Of a stretch of DNA of 56,899 bases, positions 44,110 through 56,841 are shown piece after piece. Position numbers and translations under genes: made by a program. The DNA is from a virus (taxonomy: Duplodnaviria; Caudoviricetes): the IMG/VR virus record IMGVR_UViG_3300010400_000024, positions 1-56,899 of that record. One strand, given 5' to 3'. Every line of letters starts with the position of its first letter. Position 1 is the first letter of the stretch. The notes below the pieces were generated by a model. It ran no database searches and was not told where the DNA came from. It saw nothing but the letters and a program-made list of their open reading frames with translations.

Positions 44110-44664
44110 TTAACCAGCTTTCAGCGTAGGCGTAACCTTCTCCGTATCACCGTTAGCAAACGTCCTCAATGCTGCTGTGTCACCAGCACAATACAACTGA
44201 CCAGCATTTAGTGTAGAACCGTCCGTAAGCACCCAACTATTCGCACCGTTCGGGTTAGGCGCCCCCGAGAATGCACCAAACGTCGTCTGATCTGATGTAG
44301 CTGACTGACCACCAGTAGAGAACGTGTTATCGAACGTCGAAGCAAGCCAGTCAATAGCGCCCTGTGCAATCGACTTAGCGATTGTCTGCCTTGCGTACCC
44401 TGACGCAGTAGTCGAACCAATCTCGTTAACGTTGCTTCCTGAGACTGTAGCACTCCACACTGAGTTACGGGCCATGTTAGAACCAGACCCCACAACTGTC
44501 GTACTCAACGCGAGTGTCCACGATGCAGGCGGTGTAATCGTGCCTGAAGCACCAAGCACGTAGTCCGTTACAAGCTGACTAAGCCTCTGGAACGCAATAA
44601 CAGCATTCTTCTCAGCATGTGCAGGAACTTCTGGTTCATACCTGTGATGTTCATGCATAAACAT
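44110..44664 (-). CDS. putative virion structural protein
   Basis: LALSTT, NEIG...GYARQTI, RTFANGDT pattern of phage fibre-base proteins. Confidence 0.55.
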   Translation of the reverse strand: MFMHEHHRYEPEVPAHAEKNAVIAFQRLSQLVTDYVLGASGTITPPASWTLALSTTVVGSGSNMARNSVWSATVSGSNVNEIGSTTASGYARQTIAKSIAQGAIDWLASTFDNTFSTGGQSATSDQTTFGAFSGAPNPNGANSWVLTDGSTLNAGQLYCAGDTAALRTFANGDTEKVTPTLKAG

Positions 44665-45098
44665 TATGGCGTCCCTGCCTTATTGTTATCGCCGTCCCAT
44701 TTACTAGCATCTAGCTCACCAGTCTCTGCCATCTTGTAGTTGCTCTCATGCGGCCCACTATCAACAACAGGAGAACTGATATCTCTTACGCTTGCAGCAA
44801 CTTGCTGAACACTAACCAAATCCCCAACACCGTGTTCGCTAATCGCACTATCAACAGCGGCAGTAATATCCTCTTTTGTAGCAACTTGCGACTCGTTAAA
44901 GTTAATCGGGTGTTCATCGTACTTGAGGACTTTGGCAATACGCTCGGCAGGCCCCATATCCGGGTTAGTCTGTTGAGCCTTCTCACCACTTTTAGCCCTA
45001 CGATGATGTTCGCTGATAGCACTAATAGCTTCAGCGTCATCTTCATAAGCGGCAACACTATGATTGCCAGTCTCGTAGATAATCTCGTAGTACTTCAA
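44664..45098 (-). CDS. hypothetical protein
   Basis: AGGAGG RBS. Confidence 0.6.
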   Translation of the reverse strand: MKYYEIIYETGNHSVAAYEDDAEAISAISEHHRRAKSGEKAQQTNPDMGPAERIAKVLKYDEHPINFNESQVATKEDITAAVDSAISEHGVGDLVSVQQVAASVRDISSPVVDSGPHESNYKMAETGELDASKWDGDNNKAGTP

Positions 45099-46547: not shown

Positions 46548-46685
46548 ATGACGTTCCACGCTTTCAAAGGATGCGTCGCTTACGAGCTTCAAGTTGGTAA
46601 GCTAGTGTTCCAACTGTTCTACCAGAAGCAAAAGTATTTGCGCCGCTTCCATGTATGGGTTGACAGTTACGGAAGTTGGCGCTAG
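46548..46685 (+). CDS. hypothetical protein
   Basis: AAAGGA RBS before MTFHAFKG. Confidence 0.5.
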   Translation: MTFHAFKGCVAYELQVGKLVFQLFYQKQKYLRRFHVWVDSYGSWR

Positions 46686-46716
46686 AATACCTAAAACAAC
46701 GAACGAGAAAGGAACA

Positions 46717-47364: not shown

Positions 47365-47411
47365 GTAGTCTGCATAATGATCCAACTCGTAGGGATCATT
47401 AGGAAGTCTAC

Positions 47412-47440
47412 TTGACACCGATAGGAAGGGATGGTATGCT
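47412..47440 (+). promoter_or_regulatory. early promoter, probably giving a leaderless mRNA
   Basis: TTGACA-N17-TATGCT with TG extension; ATG 7 nt downstream (47447). Confidence 0.8.
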
Positions 47441-47936: not shown

Positions 47937-47953
47937 CGCAACAAGGCAAGGCT

Positions 47954-48059
47954 TTAGTTAGCTTGCCTAGAGTAGTAAGGCTATAGGTATGGGAGTTTCT
48001 CTACAACCCTAACTCCCTCAGTGTAGAGTATGCCTTACTACTCTAGGAAGGCTAACTAA
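47954..48059 (+). ncRNA. stem cassette 1 enclosing an H-type pseudoknot
   Basis: 28-bp stem with one G.A mismatch; inner GGGAGTT/AACTCCC; loop CTCTACA pairs with TGTAGAG. Confidence 0.75.
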
Positions 48060-48068
48060 GGAGGAATA

Positions 48069-48335
48069 ATGGATAACGAAATGATGCCCTCATACGTGTA
48101 CAACGAACACGATGATGAGCATACAGTTAAAGGCCCGAAGCCTATCCCTGAAGGGATGCATGAGTGCGATGGCTGTAATGGGTCAGGAGTTTACTACGGT
48201 AAAGGTGCTGTAGTGAATGGTAAGTTTGTCGGCTTTACTGGTAAGTGCTACCGTTGTGGTGGCAAAGGCCACCAAGATGATAAAGACCTGAAGCGTAATC
48301 GGTATTACGACAATCACGTAAGGAAGGTGTGGTAA
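48069..48335 (+). CDS. DnaJ-type zinc-finger protein
   Basis: CDGCNGSG and CYRCGGKG. Confidence 0.7.
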   Translation: MDNEMMPSYVYNEHDDEHTVKGPKPIPEGMHECDGCNGSGVYYGKGAVVNGKFVGFTGKCYRCGGKGHQDDKDLKRNRYYDNHVRKVW

Positions 48336-48553
48336 TGGATATCGTAACAGAAGATGGAGTGAAGTTGAAGGAAGGTGACAGGGCTTACGATTACTACAAC
48401 ATGAAGCCCGGTTACATTAAGCCTAACAGTATAACAATGGCACCAGATGCATGGTTCGACTTTGTGCATGATGATGGTTCGACCGATTTGCTTAACGGGC
48501 AAAGGATTTGTAGTGTAGAGTTTGCTAAGCGTAGAAGGTTTAAGGACGCATGA
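48335..48553 (+). CDS. hypothetical protein
   Basis: TAATG coupling. Confidence 0.6.
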   Translation: MDIVTEDGVKLKEGDRAYDYYNMKPGYIKPNSITMAPDAWFDFVHDDGSTDLLNGQRICSVEFAKRRRFKDA

Positions 48554-48759
48554 GTGGAGTTATCGACACCGACGGCACACAGTGGGAACGTTGTAACGGT
48601 TGCGGTGAGTTCGTGAACATGGACGACTTGCGCTACGAGCAGCCGAGTGAGAAGTTTAAGTACGGTAGGGACTTGTGCATTAAGTGTATTACTGAGACAA
48701 GCATAGCCGTTAAAAAATCCTACTTGACAGATAAGGGTTTACGTGCTATGCTTCTCTAA
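48550..48759 (+). CDS. zinc-finger hypothetical protein
   Basis: CNGC...CIKC. Confidence 0.55.
   Translation: MSGVIDTDGTQWERCNGCGEFVNMDDLRYEQPSEKFKYGRDLCIKCITETSIAVKKSYLTDKGLRAMLL
48724..48752 (+). promoter_or_regulatory. early promoter
   Basis: TTGACA-N17-TATGCT with TG extension. Confidence 0.8.
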
Positions 48760-48785
48760 GTAATCCAACCGGGAGGTAAGAGCAA

Positions 48786-49025
48786 ATGCAGGGAGTATAC
48801 GTAAGAGCTAGAAGGGTAGCAACTAAGAAGGCACTAAAAGAGGCAGTTGCGGAGAACTCGCACGTTGTCGCACTTGAGGCTACTAGCCTCTTTGGTAACG
48901 AGTACGACGGCTTCCTGTTTCAGGCACCTAACGGAGTTTACAACGTTGTCGGGCCTTGTCCTCACACAAACAGGAAGTGGTACGCAACGATCACAGTGAA
49001 GGATGGCGACGTTAAAGTCAAATAG
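48786..49025 (+). CDS. hypothetical protein
   Basis: GGGAGGT RBS. Confidence 0.65.
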   Translation: MQGVYVRARRVATKKALKEAVAENSHVVALEATSLFGNEYDGFLFQAPNGVYNVVGPCPHTNRKWYATITVKDGDVKVK

Positions 49026-49101
49026 CACTCACAGGCATAAGTGGGTGGTCACTAGAAAGGTAAGAAACACTGACCACCCACTTATCCGTAAGTGTGAGTG
49101 C
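49025..49101 (+). ncRNA. long hairpin at the start of RNA cluster 1
   Basis: GCACTCACA/TGTGAGTGC plus ATAAGTGGGTGGTCA/TGACCACCCACTTAT. Confidence 0.6.
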
Positions 49102-49140
49102 GGCGCGATTCAAAGACACCATAGAGGTAGATGGACAAGT

Positions 49141-49251
49141 TAGCTTGCATAGACTGTAGAGCGCATACCGAGCGAAAGGTGGCACTCATGGAGAGTTGGC
49201 AAAGTCAAGGGGTTCGATTCCCTCCACATTCTCTACAGTCTATGGAGGCTA
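49141..49251 (+). ncRNA. stem cassette 2 enclosing a mini tRNA-like RNA
   Basis: 21-bp stem TAGCTTGCATAGACTGTAGAG/CTCTACAGTCTATGGAGGCTA with G.G; GGGG-TTCGATT-CCCT T-arm. Confidence 0.75.
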
Positions 49252-49266
49252 GTTAGTCTCTATAAA

Positions 49267-49333
49267 AGAGAAAGTGCGAAAGCGTCGAGAGCTAGGAAAT
49301 CTCGGGGTGTATGGGCCTAGACACACTTTCTCT
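49267..49333 (+). ncRNA. multi-branch RNA with kissing loops
   Basis: AGAGAAAGTG/CACTTTCTCT; loops containing CTAGG and CCTAG. Confidence 0.6.
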
Positions 49334-49405
49334 AACAACATAATAGCTCACAGTTAAAGGAGGATAATAGCATCGGGTAAGGCTATTATCGTGCAGACGT
49401 TTTAC

Positions 49406-49566
49406 TAGTCTGCATAAGCTAGTAGGAGCAATTGCATAATAGGACAACAGTATAAAGCCTGCTCTGTCCCGGTAATGGTGAAGCAAACTACCGTAAAAGC
49501 CAGACGGTGTAAGTTGGTAGTTGAAAAGCCGTCATACCTTGCCGTCCTACTAGCTTATGGAGACTA
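49406..49566 (+). ncRNA. stem cassette 3 (~117-nt structured cargo)
   Basis: 22-bp stem TAGTCTGCATAAGCTAGTAGGA/TCCTACTAGCTTATGGAGACTA with G.G. Confidence 0.75.
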
Positions 49567-49587
49567 ATGAAAGGAGGTTAACGAAAA

Positions 49588-49713
49588 ATGGATAATAGAA
49601 ACCGTAATAACTCATGGGACGCAATTTGGCAGGATGCAGGTAAAGGCTTTAGATGGTTCTGCGGTATCCTGTTGTTTGTACTGTTCATGCATTCATGTGC
49701 AGGTGTAGGCTAA
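49588..49713 (+). CDS. small membrane peptide (41 aa) between RNA cassettes
   Basis: AAGGAGG RBS; MDNRNRNNSWDAIWQDAGKGFRWFCGILLFVLFMHSCAGVG. Confidence 0.65.
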   Translation: MDNRNRNNSWDAIWQDAGKGFRWFCGILLFVLFMHSCAGVG

Positions 49714-49865
49714 CTAGTCTGCATAAGCTAACGGGTGATATAGGAACGATAAGCGGGGCGAAAGCCTAGAATCTAGTGTCACTACACACTGGACGTGAAT
49801 CGTTCGCCGGTAGTGCGGAAAGAGGGTAATACGTACCCTCCATCCGTTAGCTTATGGAGGCTAGT
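49713..49865 (+). ncRNA. stem cassette 4 enclosing a kissing-loop RNA
   Basis: 25-bp stem with G.G; loops CACTAC and GTAGTG complementary; GAAA tetraloop. Confidence 0.8.
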
Positions 49866-49869
49866 AAAA

Positions 49870-49919
49870 CCTAGTGCTTAAGTGGGCCAGCCCATTAAAG
49901 GGTCAACACTTGTACTAGG
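49870..49919 (+). ncRNA. hairpin following cassette 4
   Basis: CCTAGTGC..AAGTG/CACTT-GTACTAGG. Confidence 0.45.
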
Positions 49920-49982
49920 ACGCATGGATGGCGATAAGCTAGCCTCCAAGAACTTTAATCACACACAAGCAGGAGAGTTGCT

Positions 49983-50225
49983 ATGATAGACCTATGCGAC
50001 AGAAACCACGAAGGACTTGTGGTGAAGTTGTGGTATCAAGAACCCGACGAAATCACTATTACCGTTAGGGACGAAAGGAACGGTGAGAACTTTGCACTCG
50101 AAGTTGATCCGAGAGATGCTCTCGACGCGTACTACCACCCCTTTGCTTACAGAGATAGAGAGGCAAGAGTTGGTGTACTGGCCGAAGGTGATGCTAAGCG
50201 CAACAACGGCGATTGCCTGCCGTAA
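49983..50225 (+). CDS. hypothetical protein
   Basis: AGGAG RBS; ALDAYYHPFAY. Confidence 0.7.
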   Translation: MIDLCDRNHEGLVVKLWYQEPDEITITVRDERNGENFALEVDPRDALDAYYHPFAYRDREARVGVLAEGDAKRNNGDCLP

Positions 50226-50255
50226 AATCGAAGAGCTAGCAGAAAGGTGTAAAGC

Positions 50256-50450
50256 ATGAATGATGGCCCACCACAGATAAGAGCAGTACCACCGATGAAG
50301 CACTACACAATGGAGATTACGCTAGTTGATAGCGGTCTACCATACACTGATAAAGAGGACGCCGAGAAAGCCGCTAACGAGTGGGCTAAAGAACTTGCTA
50401 GTGGTGAAAACTGCATGGTAGGTAAAGTAGTAGTAAGAGAAGATGCCTAG
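50256..50450 (+). CDS. hypothetical protein
   Basis: ORF in early operon. Confidence 0.55.
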   Translation: MNDGPPQIRAVPPMKHYTMEITLVDSGLPYTDKEDAEKAANEWAKELASGENCMVGKVVVREDA

Positions 50451-50604
50451 ACTAACTAGGATAAAGCTGCTAGAGTTGTGGCATCATGAATACAACCGTA
50501 TGTTGGCTAAGTATGGTGATCCGGTTTACGCCGTAAAACAAGCTGATGCAGCTTGGTCAGAACCGATAGCTCTCAGCAGCATATTAAGGAGTAAATATGT
50601 ATAG
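50443..50604 (+). CDS. hypothetical protein (53 aa)
   Basis: MPRLTRIKLLELWHHEYNRM...; overlaps both neighbours. Confidence 0.45.
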   Translation: MPRLTRIKLLELWHHEYNRMLAKYGDPVYAVKQADAAWSEPIALSSILRSKYV

Positions 50605-50788
50605 ATACGAATGTCTAGCTTACGTCTGTAAAGAGAATAACGTCTATTGGTCTGAAACGTATGTGAACAATAGAACGTTGGGGCGTAACATTAAAACTCG
50701 TGAAGAAGAAATGACTAAACTTCATAGGGAGCATTACCCTATTGAGTCTCATAACCACATTGTAAAGCGGAGGAAGGTTAAATCATAA
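50597..50788 (+). CDS. hypothetical protein
   Basis: AAGGAG RBS. Confidence 0.55.
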   Translation: MYRYECLAYVCKENNVYWSETYVNNRTLGRNIKTREEEMTKLHREHYPIESHNHIVKRRKVKS

Positions 50789-51054
50789 TGTCAGCAGATA
50801 ACGGCTTCGCTATCCTGTCACTAGATGATAAGCCTGAGTATTGGGGCATCTTCTACTATAGTGGTGAAACTGATAGCACTACTGCTTTGTCTAAGGATGC
50901 TAGAGATGTACTAGCTAATCCTATCACGGCTATCCTTAAAGCTCATAGGATGCAGAAGCAGGAGAGAACTGAGTATGGCGTCTATGTTAGTGAAGAATGT
51001 CTAACGGCGGCTTTTCTCACAATGTCAGATTACCTATCAAGTGGGATAGCATGA
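50788..51054 (+). CDS. hypothetical protein
   Basis: MSADNG...TEYGV; TAATG coupling. Confidence 0.6.
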   Translation: MSADNGFAILSLDDKPEYWGIFYYSGETDSTTALSKDARDVLANPITAILKAHRMQKQERTEYGVYVSEECLTAAFLTMSDYLSSGIA

Positions 51055-51212
51055 CTATGTACCACATAACAGGGGTAACGTTCTACGGCATAAGGTTTAA
51101 GATTCGCACTACTAACCGTTTGCACGCTGAAATGATTAACGTGCATAGAGGCACCTTGTGGCAAGTAGATAGGAACGGCAAGCGAAAGATTCTAAGGAGG
51201 TATGGCTGGTAA
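51051..51212 (+). CDS. small basic hypothetical protein
   Basis: ATGA overlap. Confidence 0.5.
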   Translation: MTMYHITGVTFYGIRFKIRTTNRLHAEMINVHRGTLWQVDRNGKRKILRRYGW

Positions 51213-51373
51213 TGGCTAAAAGGATTGTACTAGTCTTTGATTACTCTGATGCCACTGATGATGCAGGAACACAAAAGTTCCTAGAAGATGTGGCTAGAGA
51301 TTTGAACGAAGACTTAAGACATTACGTAGGGTATCAAGGATGGAGGGTAGAAGATGACAGTAGCTCAGATTAG
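51212..51373 (+). CDS. small acidic hypothetical protein
   Basis: AAGGAGG RBS; TAATG coupling. Confidence 0.5.
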   Translation: MAKRIVLVFDYSDATDDAGTQKFLEDVARDLNEDLRHYVGYQGWRVEDDSSSD

Positions 51374-51539
51374 AAAGATGGGTGAGCTTACTGGCGAATT
51401 GGGTGATGCTAAGAAGGTCAACTTCAGTCAGTGGACTCATGGTAAGTTTATCTCTTTGACATTCATGAAACTTAATGGGGAGGTATGGCGATACGATATC
51501 TATCCTAATGGTGAATATGAAGGAGAACAAAGTGTCTGA
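51354..51539 (+). CDS. hypothetical protein
   Basis: GGAGG RBS. Confidence 0.55.
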   Translation: MTVAQIRKMGELTGELGDAKKVNFSQWTHGKFISLTFMKLNGEVWRYDIYPNGEYEGEQSV

Positions 51540-51615
51540 ATGGATAATCAGAATCGTAGTTGGATTCATTATCTTTGTATGGGTATTCTTCGTCGTAGTG
51601 GAGGCTTTGTCATAA
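51532..51615 (+). CDS. single-TM peptide (27 aa)
   Basis: AAGGAG RBS, GTG start; SEWIIRIVVGFIIFVWVFFVVVEALS. Confidence 0.5.
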   Translation: MSEWIIRIVVGFIIFVWVFFVVVEALS

Positions 51616-51788
51616 TGACACTAGAAAAATATGAAGTGTTCATTAAGGGTAAGGATAAGATGATTCAAAGTTGGACATTGTTCTTTGAAGCTGAGAACTT
51701 TGCTCATGCAGAGGAACAAGCTCAAGATTACCTAGACGATAACGATGAAATCGTCAAGATAACAAAGGACTACAAAAATGCCGGTTAA
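51615..51788 (+). CDS. hypothetical protein
   Basis: GGAGG RBS; EAENFAHAEEQA. Confidence 0.55.
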   Translation: MTLEKYEVFIKGKDKMIQSWTLFFEAENFAHAEEQAQDYLDDNDEIVKITKDYKNAG

Positions 51789-52029
51789 GTTTGATAGACA
51801 GCATTACAACGCATTAGCTAAGCTCTTTAGGTACACTATAAGGGAGGCAGCGAGTGTTGACCTAGATGAGCGTAATGGTGTCATTAGATTTGCGATGGAA
51901 TGCACTCAATACTTCAAATTGGGTGATCCATTGTTTGACCCTATTCAGTTTCTAGATGCATGTACGCCCGAAGAGGATAGAGAGATTAACAATCTAAGCG
52001 AATTGTGGGTGAATGATGTGGGAAATTGA
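51778..52029 (+). CDS. hypothetical protein
   Basis: RQHYNALAK...FDPIQFLDAC. Confidence 0.6.
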   Translation: MPVKFDRQHYNALAKLFRYTIREAASVDLDERNGVIRFAMECTQYFKLGDPLFDPIQFLDACTPEEDREINNLSELWVNDVGN

Positions 52030-52324
52030 TAAAGACTACATTAACACTGACCCTGGTGATACAAATAGGGTAGGTGTTAAGGGTGAAACGGTTAACGTAG
52101 GATTTGGTCATATCATGCCTGAGTGGATTGACCTACCTAGTGACGCACCAGTGGTAAGGTTTCACATGAAGGATGATGATGGTCAGGTGTATTACGGCGG
52201 TTGGCTGCACAACGATGATGAATGTCTGAATCAGGATGCAGCTCTGCATTACGGTAAGTACGATGCTGGTTGTACTACCATCGAAGTCATGATTGACGGA
52301 AAGTGGAGGCAGGACATTGGATAA
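52013..52324 (+). CDS. hypothetical protein
   Basis: FHMKDDDGQVYYGG. Confidence 0.6.
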   Translation: MMWEIDKDYINTDPGDTNRVGVKGETVNVGFGHIMPEWIDLPSDAPVVRFHMKDDDGQVYYGGWLHNDDECLNQDAALHYGKYDAGCTTIEVMIDGKWRQDIG

Positions 52325-52589
52325 CGAGGTAATTGTAGAGAAGATGAAGGTAGCACTCGCAAGTGTAGCTGGTGATGCTCATGCGTTTATGAATCAGTAC
52401 GACATTAGTGCTGAAAACGTTATCGTTATCAACTTTCACTATGTTGAGAAGGCTGTTGAGAGGCTAATGAAGCTTTCTGACGATGATGATGGTTCAGAAC
52501 TAGTAGTGATTCTTCAAGTACTAGCAGCAGCTAGCTTTAGTACTGGATTCCTTCTAGGGTATCAGTTTGCCAATGACAGAAAATCTTAA
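52293..52589 (+). CDS. hypothetical protein
   Basis: ORF in operon; start may be TTG ~52317. Confidence 0.55.
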   Translation: MTESGGRTLDNEVIVEKMKVALASVAGDAHAFMNQYDISAENVIVINFHYVEKAVERLMKLSDDDDGSELVVILQVLAAASFSTGFLLGYQFANDRKS

Positions 52590-52734
52590 ACAATACACAG
52601 TGGTTATGTATCATCCTCTTGACCTTGCTAAAGCTGTCATAGCGGAAGAAGGTGTAAATGAGGAAGATGTAAGGGCTAAGATAGAGTTGAAGTACAGTAA
52701 GTGGGTAATCGAAGAGATTAAGGAGGCAAAGTGA
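52573..52734 (+). CDS. hypothetical protein (53 aa)
   Basis: MTENLKQYTVVMY...; overlaps neighbours. Confidence 0.45.
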   Translation: MTENLKQYTVVMYHPLDLAKAVIAEEGVNEEDVRAKIELKYSKWVIEEIKEAK

Positions 52735-52877
52735 CAGTTAAGTTTAGCCATCGTCCTGCAACTGCACCTATGGGTAGGTTTGGCGGTTGTTGGCAACTTA
52801 AGGTTGGTATCCAAGCTTCTCGTTCTACCGTACTTATCAGTCTACTTATCGCGGAGCTGAAAATCAGCTTTAAGTGA
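52731..52877 (+). CDS. hypothetical protein (48 aa)
   Basis: AAGGAGG RBS, GTG start. Confidence 0.45.
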   Translation: MTVKFSHRPATAPMGRFGGCWQLKVGIQASRSTVLISLLIAELKISFK

Positions 52878-52907
52878 GTTAGCGCAAATATCCGATCCAA
52901 TATCGGC

Positions 52908-52936
52908 TTGACATTTACTAGGAATTATGATAGGCT
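52908..52936 (+). promoter_or_regulatory. early promoter
   Basis: TTGACA-N17-TAGGCT with TG extension. Confidence 0.8.
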
Positions 52937-53145
52937 GGTCTAGCCGTCCTAATCACACAGGGGGTCTTATTGCTCTTTATGACTCCACCGCAGTTAGCAG
53001 CGATAGCGCAACTGCACAAGGATAAGACAGAAAGTATCACATTGCAAAAAGCACATGGTTTAGCCGGTTATCTTCAGATAACCTTTTGGCTAGATGATGG
53101 CAAATGGCACGACTTCTTACTAACACCAGAAGGAGAGATAGAGTA

Positions 53146-53304
53146 ATGGAAGAACAGCTTAAGGCTGAGTTGGTAGAACAAGTTAAGTCAATGAAGTGGA
53201 ATGCAGACATTGTCGTCTTGAATGACGATGGTGAAGAACTTGAAGTTACCGATGTAAGCTTTGACAATGAGCTGGACAGAGTAGTGATTCAGGTGGAAGC
53301 CTAA
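53146..53304 (+). CDS. small acidic hypothetical protein
   Basis: AAGGAG RBS. Confidence 0.55.
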   Translation: MEEQLKAELVEQVKSMKWNADIVVLNDDGEELEVTDVSFDNELDRVVIQVEA

Positions 53305-53305
53305 G

Positions 53306-53503
53306 ATGGGAGTTGTTGAAGATTTCTACAAGTCTGGTGATTTAGGCTTGGACGTATCAGCAGGGATAAGTCCAGAAGCAGTTGAAGCGTTGTTTAATGA
53401 ACTTGCAAATTTCCCTGATGTTATCCTAGCCGTTAGTGGCACCACAGTAATCTTGTATAACAAGAGGTATGTAAAGGTGGTGGTAAAGGACAATGGAAGT
53501 TAG
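53306..53503 (+). CDS. hypothetical protein
   Basis: ORF in operon. Confidence 0.55.
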   Translation: MGVVEDFYKSGDLGLDVSAGISPEAVEALFNELANFPDVILAVSGTTVILYNKRYVKVVVKDNGS

Positions 53504-53804
53504 ACTTAACAAGAGTTGGAACTGTCTATCTGCTGGTACTAGACTTCTAGTGCTAGCTGATGATAACGTTGAATGGGAAAAGCCAGGTGATCCAATTAGT
53601 CATGGCTTTATCACTGTAGAACTACTACACTCTAGTAAGAAACTGTTGGACATTGAGCCTCGTATGGCTTACCCGTTCGATATCGAGTATGACTACGTTA
53701 CTGAGTGTAGGCCGACAGTTGAGTACGTTCCTTCAGAAAACCGCCACAAGCGTAGAACTCTTAAACGTAATGAGTATGAACTCAAGCAAGCGTTGGGAGT
53801 TTGA
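53493..53804 (+). CDS. hypothetical protein
   Basis: AAGGA RBS. Confidence 0.6.
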   Translation: MEVRLNKSWNCLSAGTRLLVLADDNVEWEKPGDPISHGFITVELLHSSKKLLDIEPRMAYPFDIEYDYVTECRPTVEYVPSENRHKRRTLKRNEYELKQALGV

Positions 53805-53814
53805 GAGGTAAGTT

Positions 53815-54402
53815 ATGAAGGCAAGTAGCCTATGGCCGGGAACACACTATGCCTACCAGTATGGACTTGGTAGAGGTAGAGAACTTCCTTTGGACGCCAG
53901 AAGGATTGTGGTGCTTAGACTTGAAAGTACCCCTATCCCTGGTGGTAGAAAGTCTCGCACAGAAGCACTCGTAATGTTTATGGATGAAGAAGGTGGTGCT
54001 ATCACTGAAGGACGTGATAGTAAGCCTAGAATGGTAAAGGCACCTGATATCATCAACTTTTGGGACGATTACGAAATGGAGCGAGATGCTCTTAAGGAAG
54101 AGAAGAGGATTAAACGAGAGAAAAGACTACAGCAAGAAGCTCAATGGAAGAAAGAACGTGACGAACGTTGGGCTATTGAAGCGGTAGCAACGTTTATCTA
54201 TCGTGCGGCCGAAAGTATGCGTAGGTGGGAACGTGAAAGGCATCTACGAGAAGCTGCACAGATGGAAGAAGCACGACAGAGAAGGATTAAGAACGTTCTC
54301 ATTACAAGAGGCTTAACACGAGAAGCCATTGTAGTGAACAACGGCAGCGTAATACTACAACGGGACGATGTTGAAAGGTGGTTAGGTATTCAGAATGACT
54401 AA
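53815..54402 (+). CDS. hypothetical protein with charged coiled coil
   Basis: GAGG RBS; E/R/K-rich helix. Confidence 0.65.
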   Translation: MKASSLWPGTHYAYQYGLGRGRELPLDARRIVVLRLESTPIPGGRKSRTEALVMFMDEEGGAITEGRDSKPRMVKAPDIINFWDDYEMERDALKEEKRIKREKRLQQEAQWKKERDERWAIEAVATFIYRAAESMRRWERERHLREAAQMEEARQRRIKNVLITRGLTREAIVVNNGSVILQRDDVERWLGIQND

Positions 54403-54673
54403 TCCATTGAGTATGGATTTCATTAAAGCACTAGTGAAGAAACAGGAGTATAAAGAAGTGGGACATAAGCCCATCTTTACAAGCGAAGAGTTGAAGTTGA
54501 TTAAGACAACGATCAAGGCTGGACAGCAAACACTTCGTATGCGTAATAAGAACTTCCGAGTTAGGTACTTCATCTGGAAGAAAACCGAGTGGGTTACGGT
54601 TAAGCCTGTTATGGGCTTTGTCCCGATGTTCTCTTCACCAAAGGATGATGTACTAAGAGCGGAGATTCTGTAA
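54395..54673 (+). CDS. hypothetical basic protein
   Basis: ORF in operon. Confidence 0.55.
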   Translation: MTNPLSMDFIKALVKKQEYKEVGHKPIFTSEELKLIKTTIKAGQQTLRMRNKNFRVRYFIWKKTEWVTVKPVMGFVPMFSSPKDDVLRAEIL

Positions 54674-54674
54674 C

Positions 54675-54947
54675 ATGGACTTGACAGTTAGACAAGAGAA
54701 AGTAGTTAGACTCTTGTGGCGTCATAGCAGGTGGGACTCAACAAGGGTGATAACTCAAGACTTGAACATTAGGGAAGATTATCGTAGTGGTGTGTTTACG
54801 ATCGGTCAAGTAAGGTCTATCCTAGCGAGACTTGAGAATCGTGAAATTGTTGTACGCAGAGGTTTTCCTGCACGATGGCAGTTGACTACACATGCAAGAA
54901 ATCATCTACTCGCTAAGGGGTTTAAAAGTGACTCAAAAACCACTTGA
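54675..54947 (+). CDS. winged-helix DNA-binding protein
   Basis: LTVRQEKVVRLL...QVRSILARLENREIVVRRG...WQLT. Confidence 0.6.
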   Translation: MDLTVRQEKVVRLLWRHSRWDSTRVITQDLNIREDYRSGVFTIGQVRSILARLENREIVVRRGFPARWQLTTHARNHLLAKGFKSDSKTT

Positions 54948-55224
54948 TGTTGGTTCGCTTAAAGGCTTGTTGGCTAAAGAAGAAGAACGTGAAAAGAAAG
55001 AAACAGCCAACAAAATTCGTAATAAGAACTTCCCTACTGAACCGAGGGATTTCGATACTTGGTTTAAGCTACCTACTAGATTCGCTGACTGTCACCAGGC
55101 AGATGATTGTATTGATCCAAGGGTTGATAGGACTAAAACTGGACATACAATGGTAGCGATGGTAAATGGTAGTGAGATTTGTCGCTACTGTTTTCTTGCA
55201 GGAGCTAACAAAGTTTCTACATGA
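54892..55224 (+). CDS. hypothetical Cys-containing protein
   Basis: CHQADDC...ICRYC. Confidence 0.55.
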   Translation: MQEIIYSLRGLKVTQKPLDVGSLKGLLAKEEEREKKETANKIRNKNFPTEPRDFDTWFKLPTRFADCHQADDCIDPRVDRTKTGHTMVAMVNGSEICRYCFLAGANKVST

Positions 55225-55679
55225 AAGCGATTATCGGTCATATCGAGAAGGTCTACAATGCAATATTAGATCAAGCAACTGTTGAAGTTATTGATGGTAA
55301 CGAGTTGCATATTTACCGAGGGCAGATATCTAAGCTGTATGCTACCCTTGGTATTGCACAATCGTACTACACTGAGATATTTCAGCAGTTGGACGATCAG
55401 GGTTGTATCGTTATGCTTCAACGTGGTAGTAAAGGGGTAGACAGTGTTATCGTATGCCTCCATGAGCCGTCTGAGGCCGGATACCAGCCCCCGCGAGGGC
55501 CGAGGGACTTGACAAGCGCCGAGGACTTTGCTAATATGATCGAGGAACACAGATTGCTCGTTAAACTAGTAGGAGGTATGGATATCGTAGAAGCGTTTAG
55601 AGAGTTCGATAAGAGGTTGAAGCGCCTAGAAGATATACCGGGGCGCGAGAAGTTCAGTAAAACACAAACCGAAGTATAA
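55221..55679 (+). CDS. putative winged-helix protein
   Basis: ISKLYATLGIAQSYYTEIFQQLDDQGCIVMLQRG. Confidence 0.55.
   Translation: MKAIIGHIEKVYNAILDQATVEVIDGNELHIYRGQISKLYATLGIAQSYYTEIFQQLDDQGCIVMLQRGSKGVDSVIVCLHEPSEAGYQPPRGPRDLTSAEDFANMIEEHRLLVKLVGGMDIVEAFREFDKRLKRLEDIPGREKFSKTQTEV
55509..55537 (+). promoter_or_regulatory. early promoter (intragenic) for 55698 and RNA cluster 2
   Basis: TTGACA-N17-TAATAT with TG extension. Confidence 0.75.
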
Positions 55680-55697
55680 CTAAGGAGAGAATAGAAA

Positions 55698-56057
55698 ATG
55701 GCACAGGCAATTGACGCTCAGATGATTCAGGCACTTCTGTCGAAGCAGAAGAGTCGTGGTGATTACGATGCAGACCTTCGTGATTTCCTTTCGTCTGGTA
55801 ACGCTGGTGTAGAGATCGACCTGTCGAGTGGTCGTTTTGCTGGTAAGCGTGCGAAGCAGGTTAAGACTGGCTTCGACAATGCCCGTAAAAAGACTAACGA
55901 TCAGGGTCTTGTTCATCCGGGTGGTACTCTCGTTAAGGTCATTGCTATCAATGACAAGAACGATGATGAGGGTAATCCGAAGGGCGAGCAGGAAGAGCAT
56001 GTTTATCTCATCAATACTGCTCTGCTCGGTAGTGAAGAGGACGAAGCCGCAGCGTAG
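55698..56057 (+). CDS. small protein, paralog of 47640-47936
   Basis: AAGGAG RBS; shared motifs and acidic tail. Confidence 0.75.
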   Translation: MAQAIDAQMIQALLSKQKSRGDYDADLRDFLSSGNAGVEIDLSSGRFAGKRAKQVKTGFDNARKKTNDQGLVHPGGTLVKVIAINDKNDDEGNPKGEQEEHVYLINTALLGSEEDEAAA

Positions 56058-56112
56058 TATAGTAAGTTCCCTTGCAAAGGGAGAACATGGAGAGGGGCAC
56101 GAAAGTGCCTCT

Positions 56113-56209
56113 TTCCATATTAAGCCTCTGAAAAACGGTGTGATTAGTAAATCAGTTTGAACGGTAGCAAGTAAATACCGTTACGGTCACTCAGAGGCTT
56201 AATATGGAA
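56113..56209 (+). ncRNA. stem cassette 5
   Basis: 19-bp stem TTCCATATTAAGCCTCTGA/TCAGAGGCTTAATATGGAA; inner hairpins TGATT/AATCA and AACGGTA/TACCGTT. Confidence 0.7.
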
Positions 56210-56245
56210 GTATCCATAAAGTACGTAGCCGAAGTATAGGGCTAC

Positions 56246-56345
56246 CGGCACAGTGGGCACCTTAAGCAAGTGCGATAGTAGTGTTACGGGATAGTTACTC
56301 TGTAACAGCTTAAACTACTAGCGGGTTCGACTCCCGCAAGTGCCG
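56246..56345 (+). ncRNA. tRNA-like pseudoknotted RNA with canonical T-arm (not a decoding tRNA)
   Basis: CGGCAC/GTGCCG closing stem, GCAC/GTGC arm, TAGTAGT/ACTACTA arm, GCGGG-TTCGACT-CCCGC. Confidence 0.7.
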
Positions 56346-56373
56346 TTGTTATCACACAAGCAAAGGAAAAACG

Positions 56374-56454
56374 ATGAATGATCTACTAGATGTAATCATG
56401 TTCTTCGTAACAGTGGGAACGATTGTTCTCTTTGTTGTAGCTGTAACGCATTAA
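56374..56454 (+). CDS. single-TM peptide (26 aa)
   Basis: AAAGGA RBS; MNDLLDVIMFFVTVGTIVLFVVAVTH. Confidence 0.55.
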   Translation: MNDLLDVIMFFVTVGTIVLFVVAVTH

Positions 56455-56539
56455 CTCAGGTAAGATGGTATAGGATTCGATATCATATAAAAATCCTCAA
56501 AATTTTGAATTTGGAATCTGGTTAAAGAGGTTTAGAGAT

Positions 56540-56568
56540 TTGACAAGCGGTTAATTTTGTGCTACCCT
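56540..56568 (+). promoter_or_regulatory. promoter driving an apparently non-coding transcript
   Basis: TTGACA-N17-TACCCT with TG extension; AT-rich upstream element. Confidence 0.7.
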
Positions 56569-56575
56569 TATGGGT

Positions 56576-56673
56576 GCAGCGTCCCGGTTGGAAAGGCTGC
56601 TAGGAGGGTTAGCGTGGAACGTTCTTGTGTGAGGCGTATGAGCGTTAGCCCTCCTACTAAATAATCACACAAG
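56576..56673 (+). ncRNA. hairpin RNA whose loop is complementary to the TCACACAAG motif
   Basis: TAGGAGGGTTAGCGT/GCGTTAGCCCTCCTA; loop CTTGTGTGA versus TCACACAAG at 56665. Confidence 0.6.
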
Positions 56674-56679
56674 GCAGGC

Positions 56680-56785
56680 GTTAATGTTGCTTAGACTCCC
56701 TACTCTACACTTTGACCCTAAAGGGCTTGCGGCTAATAGGGATGAGATGGCGCATAGTGTAGAAGGGAGTCTAAGGAACATTAAC
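56680..56785 (+). ncRNA. stem cassette 6
   Basis: GTTAATGTTGCTTAGACTCCCT..TCTACACT / AGTGTAGA-AGGGAGTCTAAGGAACATTAAC with G.G. Confidence 0.75.
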
Positions 56786-56841
56786 TCCGTCGCAAAGTTA
56801 ATGTTCCGTAGCGAGACTACCCCCCGTAGTCTCTCTCCCCC

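What the first reader, a model, noticed from the sequence alone, without database searches (positions are those of the whole stretch)
47944..56807. Family of processing-stem cassettes, each carrying a different structured small RNA: candidate phage RNA-arsenal system
Seen: six intergenic stems of 19-30 bp (47954-48059, 49141-49251, 49406-49566, 49713-49865, 56113-56209, 56680-56785) plus a degenerate one at 47365-47411. Their sequences differ but pairing is kept, with G-U wobbles on the + strand, which points to RNA rather than DNA inverted repeats. They share a core: 5' arm UGCAUA/UGCCUA/UGCUUA/UCCAUA opposite 3' arm UAUGGA/UAGGAA/UAAGGA, with a G.G mismatch at the same position in four, G.A in one and C-G in one. 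Each encloses an unrelated 45-120 nt folded cargo (pseudoknot, kissing loops, mini-tRNA). All lie downstream of strong early promoters. Known: RNase III stems punctuate T7 early mRNA and release rRNAs from precursors; phages are known to use RNA mimics against type III toxin-antitoxin and CRISPR systems. Inference: a common dsRNA-nuclease site (RNase III or Mini-III) excises a modular set of small RNAs early in infection, possibly decoys or inhibitors of host defence. I do not recognise this as a described system.
Basis: partly seen in the sequence, partly recalled or inferred. Interest (0 to 1): 0.95.

Follow-up and report, generated by a model that had tools for sequence, protein, structure and literature searches.

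The report
Conserved mismatch-marked RNA stems in phage
An uncultivated soil phage and its relatives carry, in their early non-coding regions, long RNA stems with one conserved G-G mismatch and freely swapped tips; they are most likely cutting sites for a host double-strand RNA nuclease, not a proven arsenal of small RNAs.

Summary
The stems are real. All seven inverted repeats sit at the stated coordinates. Five have 24 or more pairs, against 3 of 100 shuffles with any such stem. They fold better on the + strand in 6 of 7.

They are also conserved. I collected 26 cassettes from the window and from relatives with 44-59% helicase identity. All share an outer helix of 2-13 bp, a G.G mismatch (G.A once), an inner helix of 10-18 bp and an unrelated insert. 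Positions -5 to +11 pair in 409/416 cells, against 126-172/416 when the partner is slid.

At two loci in relatives the flanks are 90-100% identical but the cassette interior only 15-43%, so inserts are exchanged as modules. Some cassettes have a downstream perfect complement of the 3' arm.

The claim of structured cargo is weak: 6 of 30 inserts have z below -2, Rfam gives no match, and no motif or insert is shared. The phage encodes no RNase III or reverse transcriptase.

Best reading: host RNase III-type processing sites. No expression or cleavage data could be obtained.

The parts
47365..47411 (+). S0: degenerate 19-bp stem with a 9-nt loop, ending right before a TTGACA -35 box at 47412
47952..48061 (+). 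S1 cassette: outer helix 13 bp, G.A mismatch (47965/48048), inner helix 16 bp, 50-nt insert. The base of the 3' arm overlaps the Shine-Dalgarno sequence of the zinc-finger gene 48069-48335
49133..49259 (+). S2 cassette: G.G at 49147/49245, inner helix 14 bp, 69-nt insert with a T-loop-like GGTTCGATTCC (tRNA-like, but fails the tRNA models)
49400..49572 (+). S3 cassette: G.G at 49412/49560, inner helix 15 bp, 117-nt insert (z -1.9). The 3' arm ends just before the Shine-Dalgarno sequence of the 41-aa ORF 49588-49713
49713..49865 (+). S4 cassette: G.G at 49721/49857, inner helix 16 bp, 103-nt insert. This is the only window insert clearly more structured than shuffles (z -5.2)
49936..49951 (+). 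X* of S4: downstream segment that pairs with the S4 3' arm over 11 consecutive bases, with C facing the mismatch G
   Evidence: p about 0.017 against 300 shuffles of the downstream 160 nt
56112..56210 (+). S5 cassette: perfect 20-bp stem with C-G where the others have G.G, 59-nt insert, preceded by a GNRA-capped hairpin. The gene-hairpin-long stem layout is kept in relatives after the homologous gene
56248..56346 (+). tRNA-like element outside the stems: acceptor-like stem plus a T arm. The 17-nt T arm is identical to that of the true tmRNA of relative L082. It fails ARAGORN at default settings and fails the Rfam models
56677..56788 (+). S6 cassette: G.G at 56689/56776, inner helix 12 bp, insert about 60 nt
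56796..56811 (+). X* of S6: pairs with the S6 3' arm (15 of 16 bases, run of 12) across a 9-nt loop, with C facing the mismatch G
   Evidence: pair I11; p about 0.003
47412..47440 (+). promoter-like site TTGACA-17-TATGCT with TG. Similar sites lie at 46660-46688 and 48724-48752
   Evidence: consensus match only

Best explanation
The cassettes are cis-acting RNA helices of the early transcripts of an uncultivated family of phages of about 57 kb.

Shown:
- Each is a 20-30-bp helix on the sense strand.
- It is interrupted by one conserved purine-purine mismatch (G.G). A U.G wobble often lies two pairs outside it.
- About one and a half helical turns of unbroken pairing follow (10-18 bp, usually 13-15).
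- The tip is a non-conserved insert.
- The cassettes sit in non-coding islands beside tRNA, tmRNA or tRNA-like genes, or a few bases upstream of a Shine-Dalgarno sequence.
- The conserved helix base stays fixed, while the upper stem and insert are replaced wholesale between near-identical phages.

Inferred:
- The helix is a substrate of the host's RNase III.
- The mismatch sets where the enzyme cuts, and perhaps on which strand, much as the internal loops of T7 early processing sites do.
- Cutting separates cistrons and stable RNAs, and defines the 5' end of the downstream message.
- Where a downstream perfect complement (X*) exists, the freed 3'-arm stub refolds with it into a terminal hairpin that protects the downstream RNA.
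- The inserts are mostly passengers. They are shuffled by recombination at the conserved cores, which act as short homology linkers.
For: - Non-random stems that favour the + strand.
- Architecture kept in 26 cassettes from the window and at least 12 other contigs. Positions +1 to +10 pair in 260/260 cells. Positions -5 to +11 pair in 409/416, against 126-172/416 with the 3' partner slid by 1-3. Each position shows 3-6 pair types.
- The mismatch sits on the sense strand. In 24 further loci, G.G on the + strand occurs 10 times against 2 on the - strand, and C.C once on + against 8 on -. Among stems with exactly one mismatch, G.G is 12 of 35.
- Helix length fits the roughly 22 bp that RNase III accommodates (Altuvia 2018, PMC6212723, passages). 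[quoted passage not shown]
- Mismatches at target sites are said to restrict cleavage to one strand, and 3' hairpins to stabilise RNA (Nicholson review PMC3867540, passage).
- No phage-encoded RNase III domain, so the enzyme would be the host's.
- In relative L082 a true tmRNA (Rfam 79 bits) ends at 9136 and the first cassette helix starts at 9137.
- Cassettes S1, S3 and the A-locus cassettes end 4-12 nt before GAAAGGAGG and a start codon.
- X* is significant for S4, S6 and the three B-locus cassettes. I also saw it by eye in L082, L083, L088 and L089.
- Module replacement: flanks 90-100% identical, interior 15-43%.
Against: - No RNA ends, no cleavage assay and no known host. RNase III is assigned by geometry and analogy only.
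- In mapped E. coli and B. subtilis sites the positions next to the cut are paired in over 90% of cases. A mismatch is therefore not typical, and the cut may lie elsewhere in the helix.
- The core sequence is conserved across phages with only 44-59% helicase identity. That is more sequence conservation than a generic double-strand RNA site needs, and it fits a sequence-specific binder.
- The 6 kb of tightly packed early genes at 49983-56057 have no cassette. They are not general cistron separators as in T7.
- Outer helices of 2-4 bp in 4 of 26 cassettes leave little duplex below the mismatch.
- Inserts are on average slightly more structured than shuffles (mean z -1.2, n=30). One cassette family without the G.G mismatch in relatives (C0) has a conserved insert with compensatory changes. 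Some inserts may therefore matter.
Confidence: 0.5

Rival explanations
1. RNA arsenal. The helix is only the excision handle. The inserts are the products: a modular, fast-changing set of small RNAs released early in infection that act as decoys or regulators against host systems.
For: - Inserts are replaced as whole modules between phages with 90-100% identical flanks. There are 3 versions at the A locus among 4 variants and 3 at the B locus. This looks like diversifying turnover.
- The S4 insert has z -5.2, and 6 of 30 inserts have z below -2.
- The S2 insert is tRNA-like.
- The C0 insert in relatives is conserved, with 14 of 30 predicted pairs showing compensatory changes.
- Cassettes lie next to tRNA and tmRNA genes.
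Against: - 24 of 30 inserts fold no better than z -2, and 4 of 6 in the window are at about 0.
- No insert recurs in a second lineage or locus.
- No shared motif: the top 5-mer is in 8 of 25 inserts, and the 95th percentile of shuffles is 8.
- No Rfam match.
- One cassette has only a 10-nt insert (L082 9857-9894), so the helix exists without cargo.
- No target, and no link to any defence system.
Confidence: 0.2
2. Binding site for a sequence-specific protein other than RNase III, either a phage early protein or a host factor. A G.G mismatch widens the RNA major groove, as in known sites for arginine-rich peptides (recalled, not from a call). The cassettes would then act in translational control, antitermination or RNA protection.
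For: - The core sequence, not only the pairing, is conserved over 44-59% helicase identity. The 5' arm reads ACGUAGUUG-AAUG and the 3' arm CAUU-G-AGCUACGU.
- At the positions next to the mismatch, U-A at +3 occurs in 22/26 and U.G at -2 in 15/26.
- A small CXXCXGXG zinc-finger protein next to S1 is the best-conserved early protein, at 73-74% identity.
Against: - No RNA-binding family was recognised in 22 ORFs scanned: Pfam for 20, of which 5 also with PHROGs, and PHROGs alone for 2 more.
- The window's own core differs from the relatives' core by a 1-nt insertion and several substitutions.
- No test of binding was made.
Confidence: 0.12
3. Uncleaved structural elements. The helices act as stability barriers or insulators, as 3' or 5' protective hairpins and blocks to ribosome or exonuclease passage, without being cut.
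For: - Very stable folds, -42 to -80 kcal/mol.
- Location at gene ends and in 5' UTRs.
- The 5'-arm cores carry stop codons (read, not counted).
Against: This does not explain the conserved mismatch, the constant inner-helix length, or the X* alternative partner.
Confidence: 0.1
4. DNA-level elements. These would be miniature inverted-repeat mobile elements, or recombination cassettes like the promoter-stem-loop (PeSL) motifs of T4-type phages, with the RNA fold incidental.
For: - Module replacement and an extra module of about 115 nt in L029, inside conserved flanks.
- A palindromic outer core (CTACGTAG) is shared by tandem cassettes.
- Correia elements of Neisseria are inverted-repeat elements that bind RNase III (PMC2649163, abstract in the listing).
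Against: - Strong strand bias of G.G and of G.U relative to transcription.
- The upper stems differ between copies but stay fully paired, which no transposase needs.
- No target-site duplication at the A-locus borders.
- No Y1 transposase or reverse transcriptase in the two complete genomes. Other transposase families were not searched.
- Interiors are not conserved, unlike mobile-element copies.
Confidence: 0.08

Closest known systems
RNase III processing sites of the T7/T3 early region (recalled from the literature; the general rules are from PMC3867540)
   Same: Hairpins in early polycistronic phage RNA. A helix irregularity at the target site is thought to direct one-strand cleavage. A host enzyme does the cutting. 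The products are defined mRNA ends with stabilising hairpins.
   Different: - A single 1x1 G.G mismatch here, not an asymmetric internal loop.
- A much longer helix, 20-30 bp.
- Large inserts of 10-123 nt at the tip, replaced between relatives.
- Clustered in two non-coding islands rather than lying between every early gene.
- An unrelated phage family with no RNA polymerase gene seen.
- Cleavage not shown.
Processing stalks of rRNA operons, and long-range RNase III duplexes in bacterial mRNAs (PMC11780869, PMC6212723; passages)
   Same: A long duplex formed by sequences flanking 50 to more than 100 nt of intervening RNA, with the intervening RNA released by a double cut. The cassettes also lie next to stable RNA genes (tmRNA in L082).
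   Different: - Mapped sites are almost always paired next to the cut.
- The intervening RNA there is a conserved functional RNA or coding sequence.
- Here it is hypervariable and mostly unremarkable.
PeSL promoter-stem-loop cassettes of T4-type phages (PMC2839356, PMC4122927; abstracts)
   Same: Repeated short regulatory motifs in plastic early regions that serve as exchange points for modular shuffling between close relatives.
   Different: - PeSLs are a promoter plus a terminator hairpin and they flank ORFs.
- Here the conserved unit is the two halves of one helix, and what is exchanged is its own non-coding tip.
- No U-tract terminator.
- A promoter adjoins only S0 in the window and the C0 cassettes in relatives.
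Correia repeat enclosed elements of Neisseria (PMC2649163; abstract in the search listing)
   Same: Transcribed elements of about 100-150 nt bounded by inverted repeats, which bind RNase III and affect neighbouring genes.
   Different: - Correia elements are mobile and have a conserved interior.
- Target duplications are recalled for them.
- Here the interior is unrelated between copies, and no duplication is seen.
Phage-borne tRNA and tmRNA genes
   Same: Relatives carry true tRNAs (L061) and a tmRNA (L082) in the same early islands. The window has two tRNA-like remnants.
   Different: The window's elements fail ARAGORN and Rfam. The cassettes themselves are not tRNA-related.

Membership tests
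Bacterial RNase III substrate | Double-helical RNA of about 20-22 bp or more | tested here: met
   Outer helix plus mismatch plus inner helix is 20 bp or more in 22 of 26 cassettes. The four exceptions are L032 at 19, L043 11905 at 17, L031 at 17 and L082 9857 at 18. The window's S1-S6 have 20-30.
Bacterial RNase III substrate | Cleavage by RNase III leaving 2-nt 3' overhangs | not testable with these tools
Bacterial RNase III substrate | Transcribed in the orientation that forms the helix | tested here: inconclusive
   Sense-strand bias of G.G (10 against 2) and of G.U supports it. There is no direct expression evidence.
Bacterial RNase III substrate | Base-pair preferences of the proximal and distal boxes, and absence of antideterminants | not tested
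   The position matrices are in figures I could not read. Only text passages were seen.
T7-type early processing site | Lies between cistrons of an early operon of a T7-like phage | tested here: not met
   The phage has a family-A DNA polymerase, a primase and a helicase. Its major head protein is less than 28% identical to any deposited phage. The 6-kb early gene block has no cassettes.
Any Rfam family | Match at the gathering score | tested here: not met
   0 matches in the whole window. Only chance-level matches at E up to 10 in the two regions. 0 at E up to 0.1 in four relatives' loci.
tRNA / tmRNA (S2 insert, 56248-56346) | Recognised by ARAGORN or by Rfam RF00005 / RF00023 | tested here: not met
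   ARAGORN finds 0 genes. Only with the threshold lowered to 80% does it give a poor fit at 56256-56345. No Rfam tRNA or tmRNA match beyond a 13-nt T-loop hit at E 8.1.
PeSL cassette | Strong promoter plus an effective terminator stem-loop in one motif | tested here: not met
   No U-tract after S1-S6. A -35 box adjoins only S0 in the window and the C0 cassettes in relatives.
PeSL cassette | Exchange point for modular shuffling between close relatives | tested here: met
Miniature inverted-repeat mobile element | Conserved interior, target-site duplication, cognate transposase | tested here: not met
   Interiors are unrelated. No duplication at the A-locus borders. No Y1 transposase in the two complete genomes; other transposase families were not searched.
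Retron non-coding RNA | Adjacent reverse transcriptase | tested here: not met
   No RVT_1 match at E up to 1 in the window's genome or in its complete relative.
TIGR / CRISPR-like array | Associated Nop-domain or Cas protein, and identical repeats with unique spacers | tested here: not met
   No Nop domain. Only 2-3 tandem units, in L080 and L082. Cas families were not searched.

The most novel reading that the evidence does not exclude
The G.G-marked helix is a conserved 'socket' that a whole family of soil phages uses to express and excise interchangeable small RNAs. Recombination at the socket halves lets phages swap these RNAs, and the inserts are host-specific effectors such as tRNA or tmRNA mimics and decoys. 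The X* element switches the downstream RNA into a protected state after excision. On this reading the cassettes are an RNA counterpart of gene-cassette systems.
Probability: 0.2. Interest if true: 0.85.

Novelty: new variant of a known kind. Interest (0 to 1): 0.6.

Why it matters
If the helices are RNase III sites, they offer a natural and evolutionarily replicated example of a single mismatch encoding where a double-strand RNA nuclease acts. There are 26 variants with compensatory changes to work from, and the idea can be tested directly in vitro.

The replacement of helix tips between phages with near-identical flanks shows a recombination hot spot built from two halves of an RNA helix. That is a new twist on modular phage evolution.

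The motif family is not in Rfam and marks an uncultivated phage family that also carries tmRNA and tRNA genes in the same islands.

If the minority reading holds, it would be a platform for exchangeable phage small RNAs. It would also be a ready-made scaffold for expressing RNA inserts.

Tried and rejected
- Exact 16-mer of the S3/S4 core in IMG/VR. 27 loci were found and none had the partner arm; all were coincidences in coding sequence.
- Window-type core motif in the first 10 relatives' loci: 0 hits.
- Window-type bipartite pattern in IMG/VR: 44 loci, 0 of 44 with an inner helix beyond what the pattern forces. I found no second phage with the window's own core. Only gaps of 85-115 nt were searched.
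- Nucleotide search of GenBank phages with the two regions: no match.
- The 98-aa neighbouring protein as a query: no relatives.
- Nucleotide similarity of the window's non-coding islands to the complete relative: only the zinc-finger gene matched.
- MAFFT of 12 whole cassettes. The 5' arms aligned, with the mismatch G invariant, but the 3' arms fell out of register. I therefore built no covariance model and counted pairs in my own anchored table instead.
- The relaxed G.G descriptor (10 inner pairs) was about half noise. I kept 26 cassettes by hand, on inner and outer helix length. The rows dropped were mostly those with an inner helix of 10 and an outer of 4 or fewer, or lying in coding regions.
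- Phage-encoded enzymes that could act on the cassettes: no RNase III, reverse transcriptase, Y1 transposase or Nop domain. No RNA enzyme was seen among 22 ORFs scanned: Pfam for 20, of which 5 also with PHROGs, and PHROGs alone for 2 more.
- Host. The head protein is at most 28% identical to any deposited phage, with mixed hosts. The host stays unknown.
- The C0 insert motif of relatives is absent from the window.
- Mini-III. Its reported ACCU preference (PMC6212723 passage) is not in the cores as I read them by eye in the sequences. This was not tested further.
- Paper supplements were not opened; site tables of the RNase III papers might bear on the mismatch question.

Full report
What the window is. 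The 56,899-base window is a whole IMG/VR virus record, estimated 97% complete. It is a tailed phage with helicase, exonuclease, primase and family-A DNA polymerase on the + strand, and head, portal and terminase genes on the - strand. Its major head protein is at most 28% identical to any deposited phage, so the host is unknown. The finding lies in the early region, about 45.9-56.9 kb, on the + strand. That region runs into the replication genes at the start of the record.

All seven stems are present at the stated places. The window has five long-range stems with 24 or more pairs. Only 3 of 100 dinucleotide shuffles had any such stem, and the mean number with 20 or more pairs was 0.43, against 6 observed. 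The + strand folds better in 6 of 7, and the stems carry 10 G.U pairs on that strand. The inserts are 50-117 nt and unrelated.

The weak part is 'folded cargo'. Against 200 dinucleotide shuffles, only the S4 insert (z -5.17) stands out and S3 (-1.93) is borderline. S1, S2, S5 and S6 lie between -0.67 and +0.44. The 'mini-tRNA' in S2 has a T-loop-like sequence and a cloverleaf-like fold, but it is no tRNA by ARAGORN or Rfam. Rfam gives no family match anywhere in the window, and only chance-level hits at E up to 10.

Relatives. A helicase search found a clade at 53-55% identity. It includes a complete 57,462-bp genome with terminal repeats that is collinear with the window. The small zinc-finger protein next to S1 brought in more contigs of this clade from IMG/VR and from metagenomes. 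A helicase alignment brought 24 further loci at 44-59% identity.

These phages have no nucleotide similarity to the window's non-coding islands. Even so, they carry the same kind of element in the same early region. One bipartite pattern scan added two more contigs. I kept 26 cassettes by hand, 5 from the window and 21 from at least 12 other contigs.

Measured from the mismatch, positions +1 to +10 are paired in 260 of 260 cells and +11 in 25 of 26. Pairing then decays to 8 of 26 at +16. The inner helix is 10-18 bp and the outer helix 2-13 bp. Over positions -5 to +11, 409 of 416 cells pair, against 126-172 of 416 when the 3' partner is slid by 1-3. Each position shows 3-6 standard pair types. 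Next to the mismatch there is sequence preference: U-A at -1 in 20/26, U.G at -2 in 15/26, and U-A at +3 in 22/26.

Two caveats apply. The cassettes were found with filters that demand pairing, so the pairing percentages are partly built in. Paralogues and close relatives are also not independent. The identity of the mismatch, its strand and the neighbouring preferences are not imposed by the filters.

In the 24 added loci, a descriptor that allowed any non-pair at position 0 found G.G 10 times on the gene-sense strand and 2 times on the other. C.C showed the reverse, 1 and 8. Among stems with exactly one mismatch, G.G was 12 of 35. Other single mismatches (C.A, A.A, G.A) also occur in good stems, for example in L062. 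The general feature may therefore be one helix defect, with G.G the favourite.

The relatives' commonest core has ACGUAGUUG-AAUG on the 5' arm and CAUU-G-AGCUACGU on the 3' arm. The window's core has UAGUCUG-CAUA and UAUG-G-AGACUA. It aligns to the relatives' core with a one-base insertion. The outer part, CUACGUAG, is its own complement, so tandem cassettes in L080 and L082 share it.

Module replacement. At one locus upstream of a conserved gene, four phage variants have flanks 90-95% identical upstream and 74-94% downstream. Where the versions differ, the cassette between GCCGAA.GT and CGAAAGGAGG is only 15-43% alike. There are three versions among the four variants, with different upper stems and inserts of 40, 59 and 90 nt. 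At a second locus, two contigs are 93-100% identical in five flanking blocks. They are only 33% alike in the upper stem and insert, and 36% alike in the tip of the neighbouring perfect stem. One contig has an extra module of about 115 nt. The conserved helix base stays with the flanks. This is exchange, not drift.

No insert recurs at another locus or in another lineage. The inserts share no motif: the top 5-mer is in 8 of 25, which equals the 95th percentile of shuffles. Over 30 inserts the mean z is -1.2 and 6 are below -2 (a few of the 30 are doubtful cassettes). The inserts are thus mildly structured on average, and most are unremarkable.

One different cassette family in relatives (C0) lies before a promoter-like GTTGAC and lacks the G.G mismatch. 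It behaves the other way round: the insert is conserved and the stem varies, with 14 of 30 predicted pairs showing compensatory changes among 4 sequences. It is absent from the window.

Context.
- S1, S3 and the A-locus cassettes end 4-12 nt before a strong Shine-Dalgarno sequence and a start codon. S1's base overlaps that sequence.
- S2, S4, S5 and S6 lie in islands with more structure. There is a tRNA-like element at 56248-56346 whose T arm equals that of a true tmRNA in relative L082.
- In L082 the tmRNA (Rfam 79 bits, E 1e-28) ends at 9136 and the first cassette helix begins at 9137.
- L061, the window's nearest relative by helicase, has three tRNAs by Rfam in its early region but only short G.G hairpins.
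- The 6 kb of packed small genes at 49983-56057 have no cassette.

A third partner. For S4, S6 and the three B-locus cassettes, a segment 20-84 nt downstream is a perfect complement of the 3' arm. The run is 11-14 consecutive bases, with p between 0 and 0.017 against shuffled downstream sequence. In all five cases C faces the G that is mismatched in the main helix. S1, S2, S3 and the four A-locus cassettes have none. I saw the same element by eye in L082, L083, L088 and L089. The 5' arm and this X* are thus two versions of one sequence, one deliberately imperfect and one perfect.

Mechanism. The helix has the size that RNase III accommodates, about 22 bp (PMC6212723, passage). Long-range duplexes that enclose more than 100 nt are normal targets in B. 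subtilis (PMC11780869, passages). [quoted passage not shown] The phage and its complete relative encode no RNase III domain, so the enzyme would be the host's.

I therefore read the cassettes as host-RNase III-type processing sites in which the G.G and U.G defect fixes the register or strand of cutting. Cutting would separate stable RNAs and messages. The short, defect-weakened outer helix would then fall apart, and where X* exists the 3' stub would refold into a perfect terminal hairpin. In B. subtilis a 5'-proximal hairpin protects a cleavage product from RNase J1 (PMC11780869, passage). Every step from 'is cut' onward is inference.

Several points count against this reading. Mapped sites are over 90% paired next to the cut. 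The core is more sequence-conserved than a generic double-strand RNA site needs, which fits a specific binding protein. Four of 26 outer helices are only 2-4 bp.

Rivals. The arsenal reading keeps the nuclease but makes the inserts the point. Module turnover, the S4 and S2 inserts and C0 speak for it. The ordinary folding of most inserts, their uniqueness, the 10-nt insert in one cassette and the lack of any target speak against it.

A specific RNA-binding protein, uncleaved stabiliser helices and DNA-level mobile or recombination cassettes are less likely. The strand bias, the kept pairing of non-conserved upper stems and the absence of a target duplication argue against a purely DNA-level element. 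So does the absence of a Y1 transposase and a reverse transcriptase. Recombination at the conserved cores, as with the PeSL motifs of T4-type phages (abstracts), is still the likely way the tips are exchanged.

Novelty and limits. The mechanism class, nuclease-processing stems in phage early RNA, is known. What I did not find described is:
- the conserved G.G-marked helix;
- the family-wide distribution;
- the wholesale swapping of helix tips inside near-identical flanks;
- the X* partner.

I searched for this in Rfam and in four full-text searches of the paper library. These searches were narrow, so absence from print is not established.

Other limits:
- The host is unknown.
- No covariance model was built, because the automatic alignment was out of register.

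Noticed in passing
L082:8840-9136: A relative of this phage encodes a true tmRNA (Rfam RF00023, 79 bits, E 1e-28) in its early region. It is followed at once by two tandem G.G cassettes.
   Followed up: partly
L061:15-85, 1177-1249, 2096-2177; L077:895-980; L073:10091-10166: Other relatives carry tRNA genes in the early region. L061 has Met, Leu and a third. L077 has Tyr. L073 has a tRNA that ARAGORN calls with anticodon tta, which would be suppressor-like.
   Followed up: no
window 56248-56346: A tRNA-like element with an acceptor-like stem, a long hairpin and a tmRNA-type T arm, but no encoded CCA. It may be a degenerate tRNA or tmRNA remnant, or a mimic.
   Followed up: partly
L041:16890-17000, L043:8958-9072, L048:9175-9292, L055:575-690: C0 is a conserved structured RNA of relatives at the start of the early region. 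Its single-stranded motifs are invariant and 14 of 30 pairs show compensatory changes. Its 3' arm contains a conserved GTTGAC that looks like a -35 box. It has no Rfam match and is absent from the window.
   Followed up: partly
window 48685-48767: A 30-nt imperfect inverted repeat. Its loop and 3' arm hold a TTGACA-17-TATGCT promoter-like site, and its 5' arm lies in the end of ORF 48550-48759.
   Followed up: no
window 49026-49096 and 49260-49400: More hairpins lie in the 560-nt non-coding island between S-cassettes. One is a 26-bp stem that folds better on the - strand. There is also a Shine-Dalgarno-like AAGGAGG with no start codon, followed by a hairpin.
   Followed up: no
window 49588-49713 and 56375-56455: Two tiny hydrophobic ORFs (41 and 26 aa) sit directly between or after cassettes. 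The stop codon of the first lies in the S4 5' arm.
   Followed up: no
window 28580-28657: A long hairpin (about 24 Watson-Crick and 5 G.U pairs, 18-nt loop) on the - strand between two late genes. It is unrelated to the early cassettes.
   Followed up: no
window 48069-48335: An 88-aa protein with two CXXCXGXG zinc-finger motifs of the DnaJ type is the best-conserved early protein (73-76% identity in relatives). Its function is unknown.
   Followed up: partly
L042:4434-5020 (complete relative, 44434-45020): A non-coding island of about 600 nt in the complete relative has blocks 96-100% identical between contigs, interrupted by swapped modules. It probably holds further structured RNAs.
   Followed up: partly
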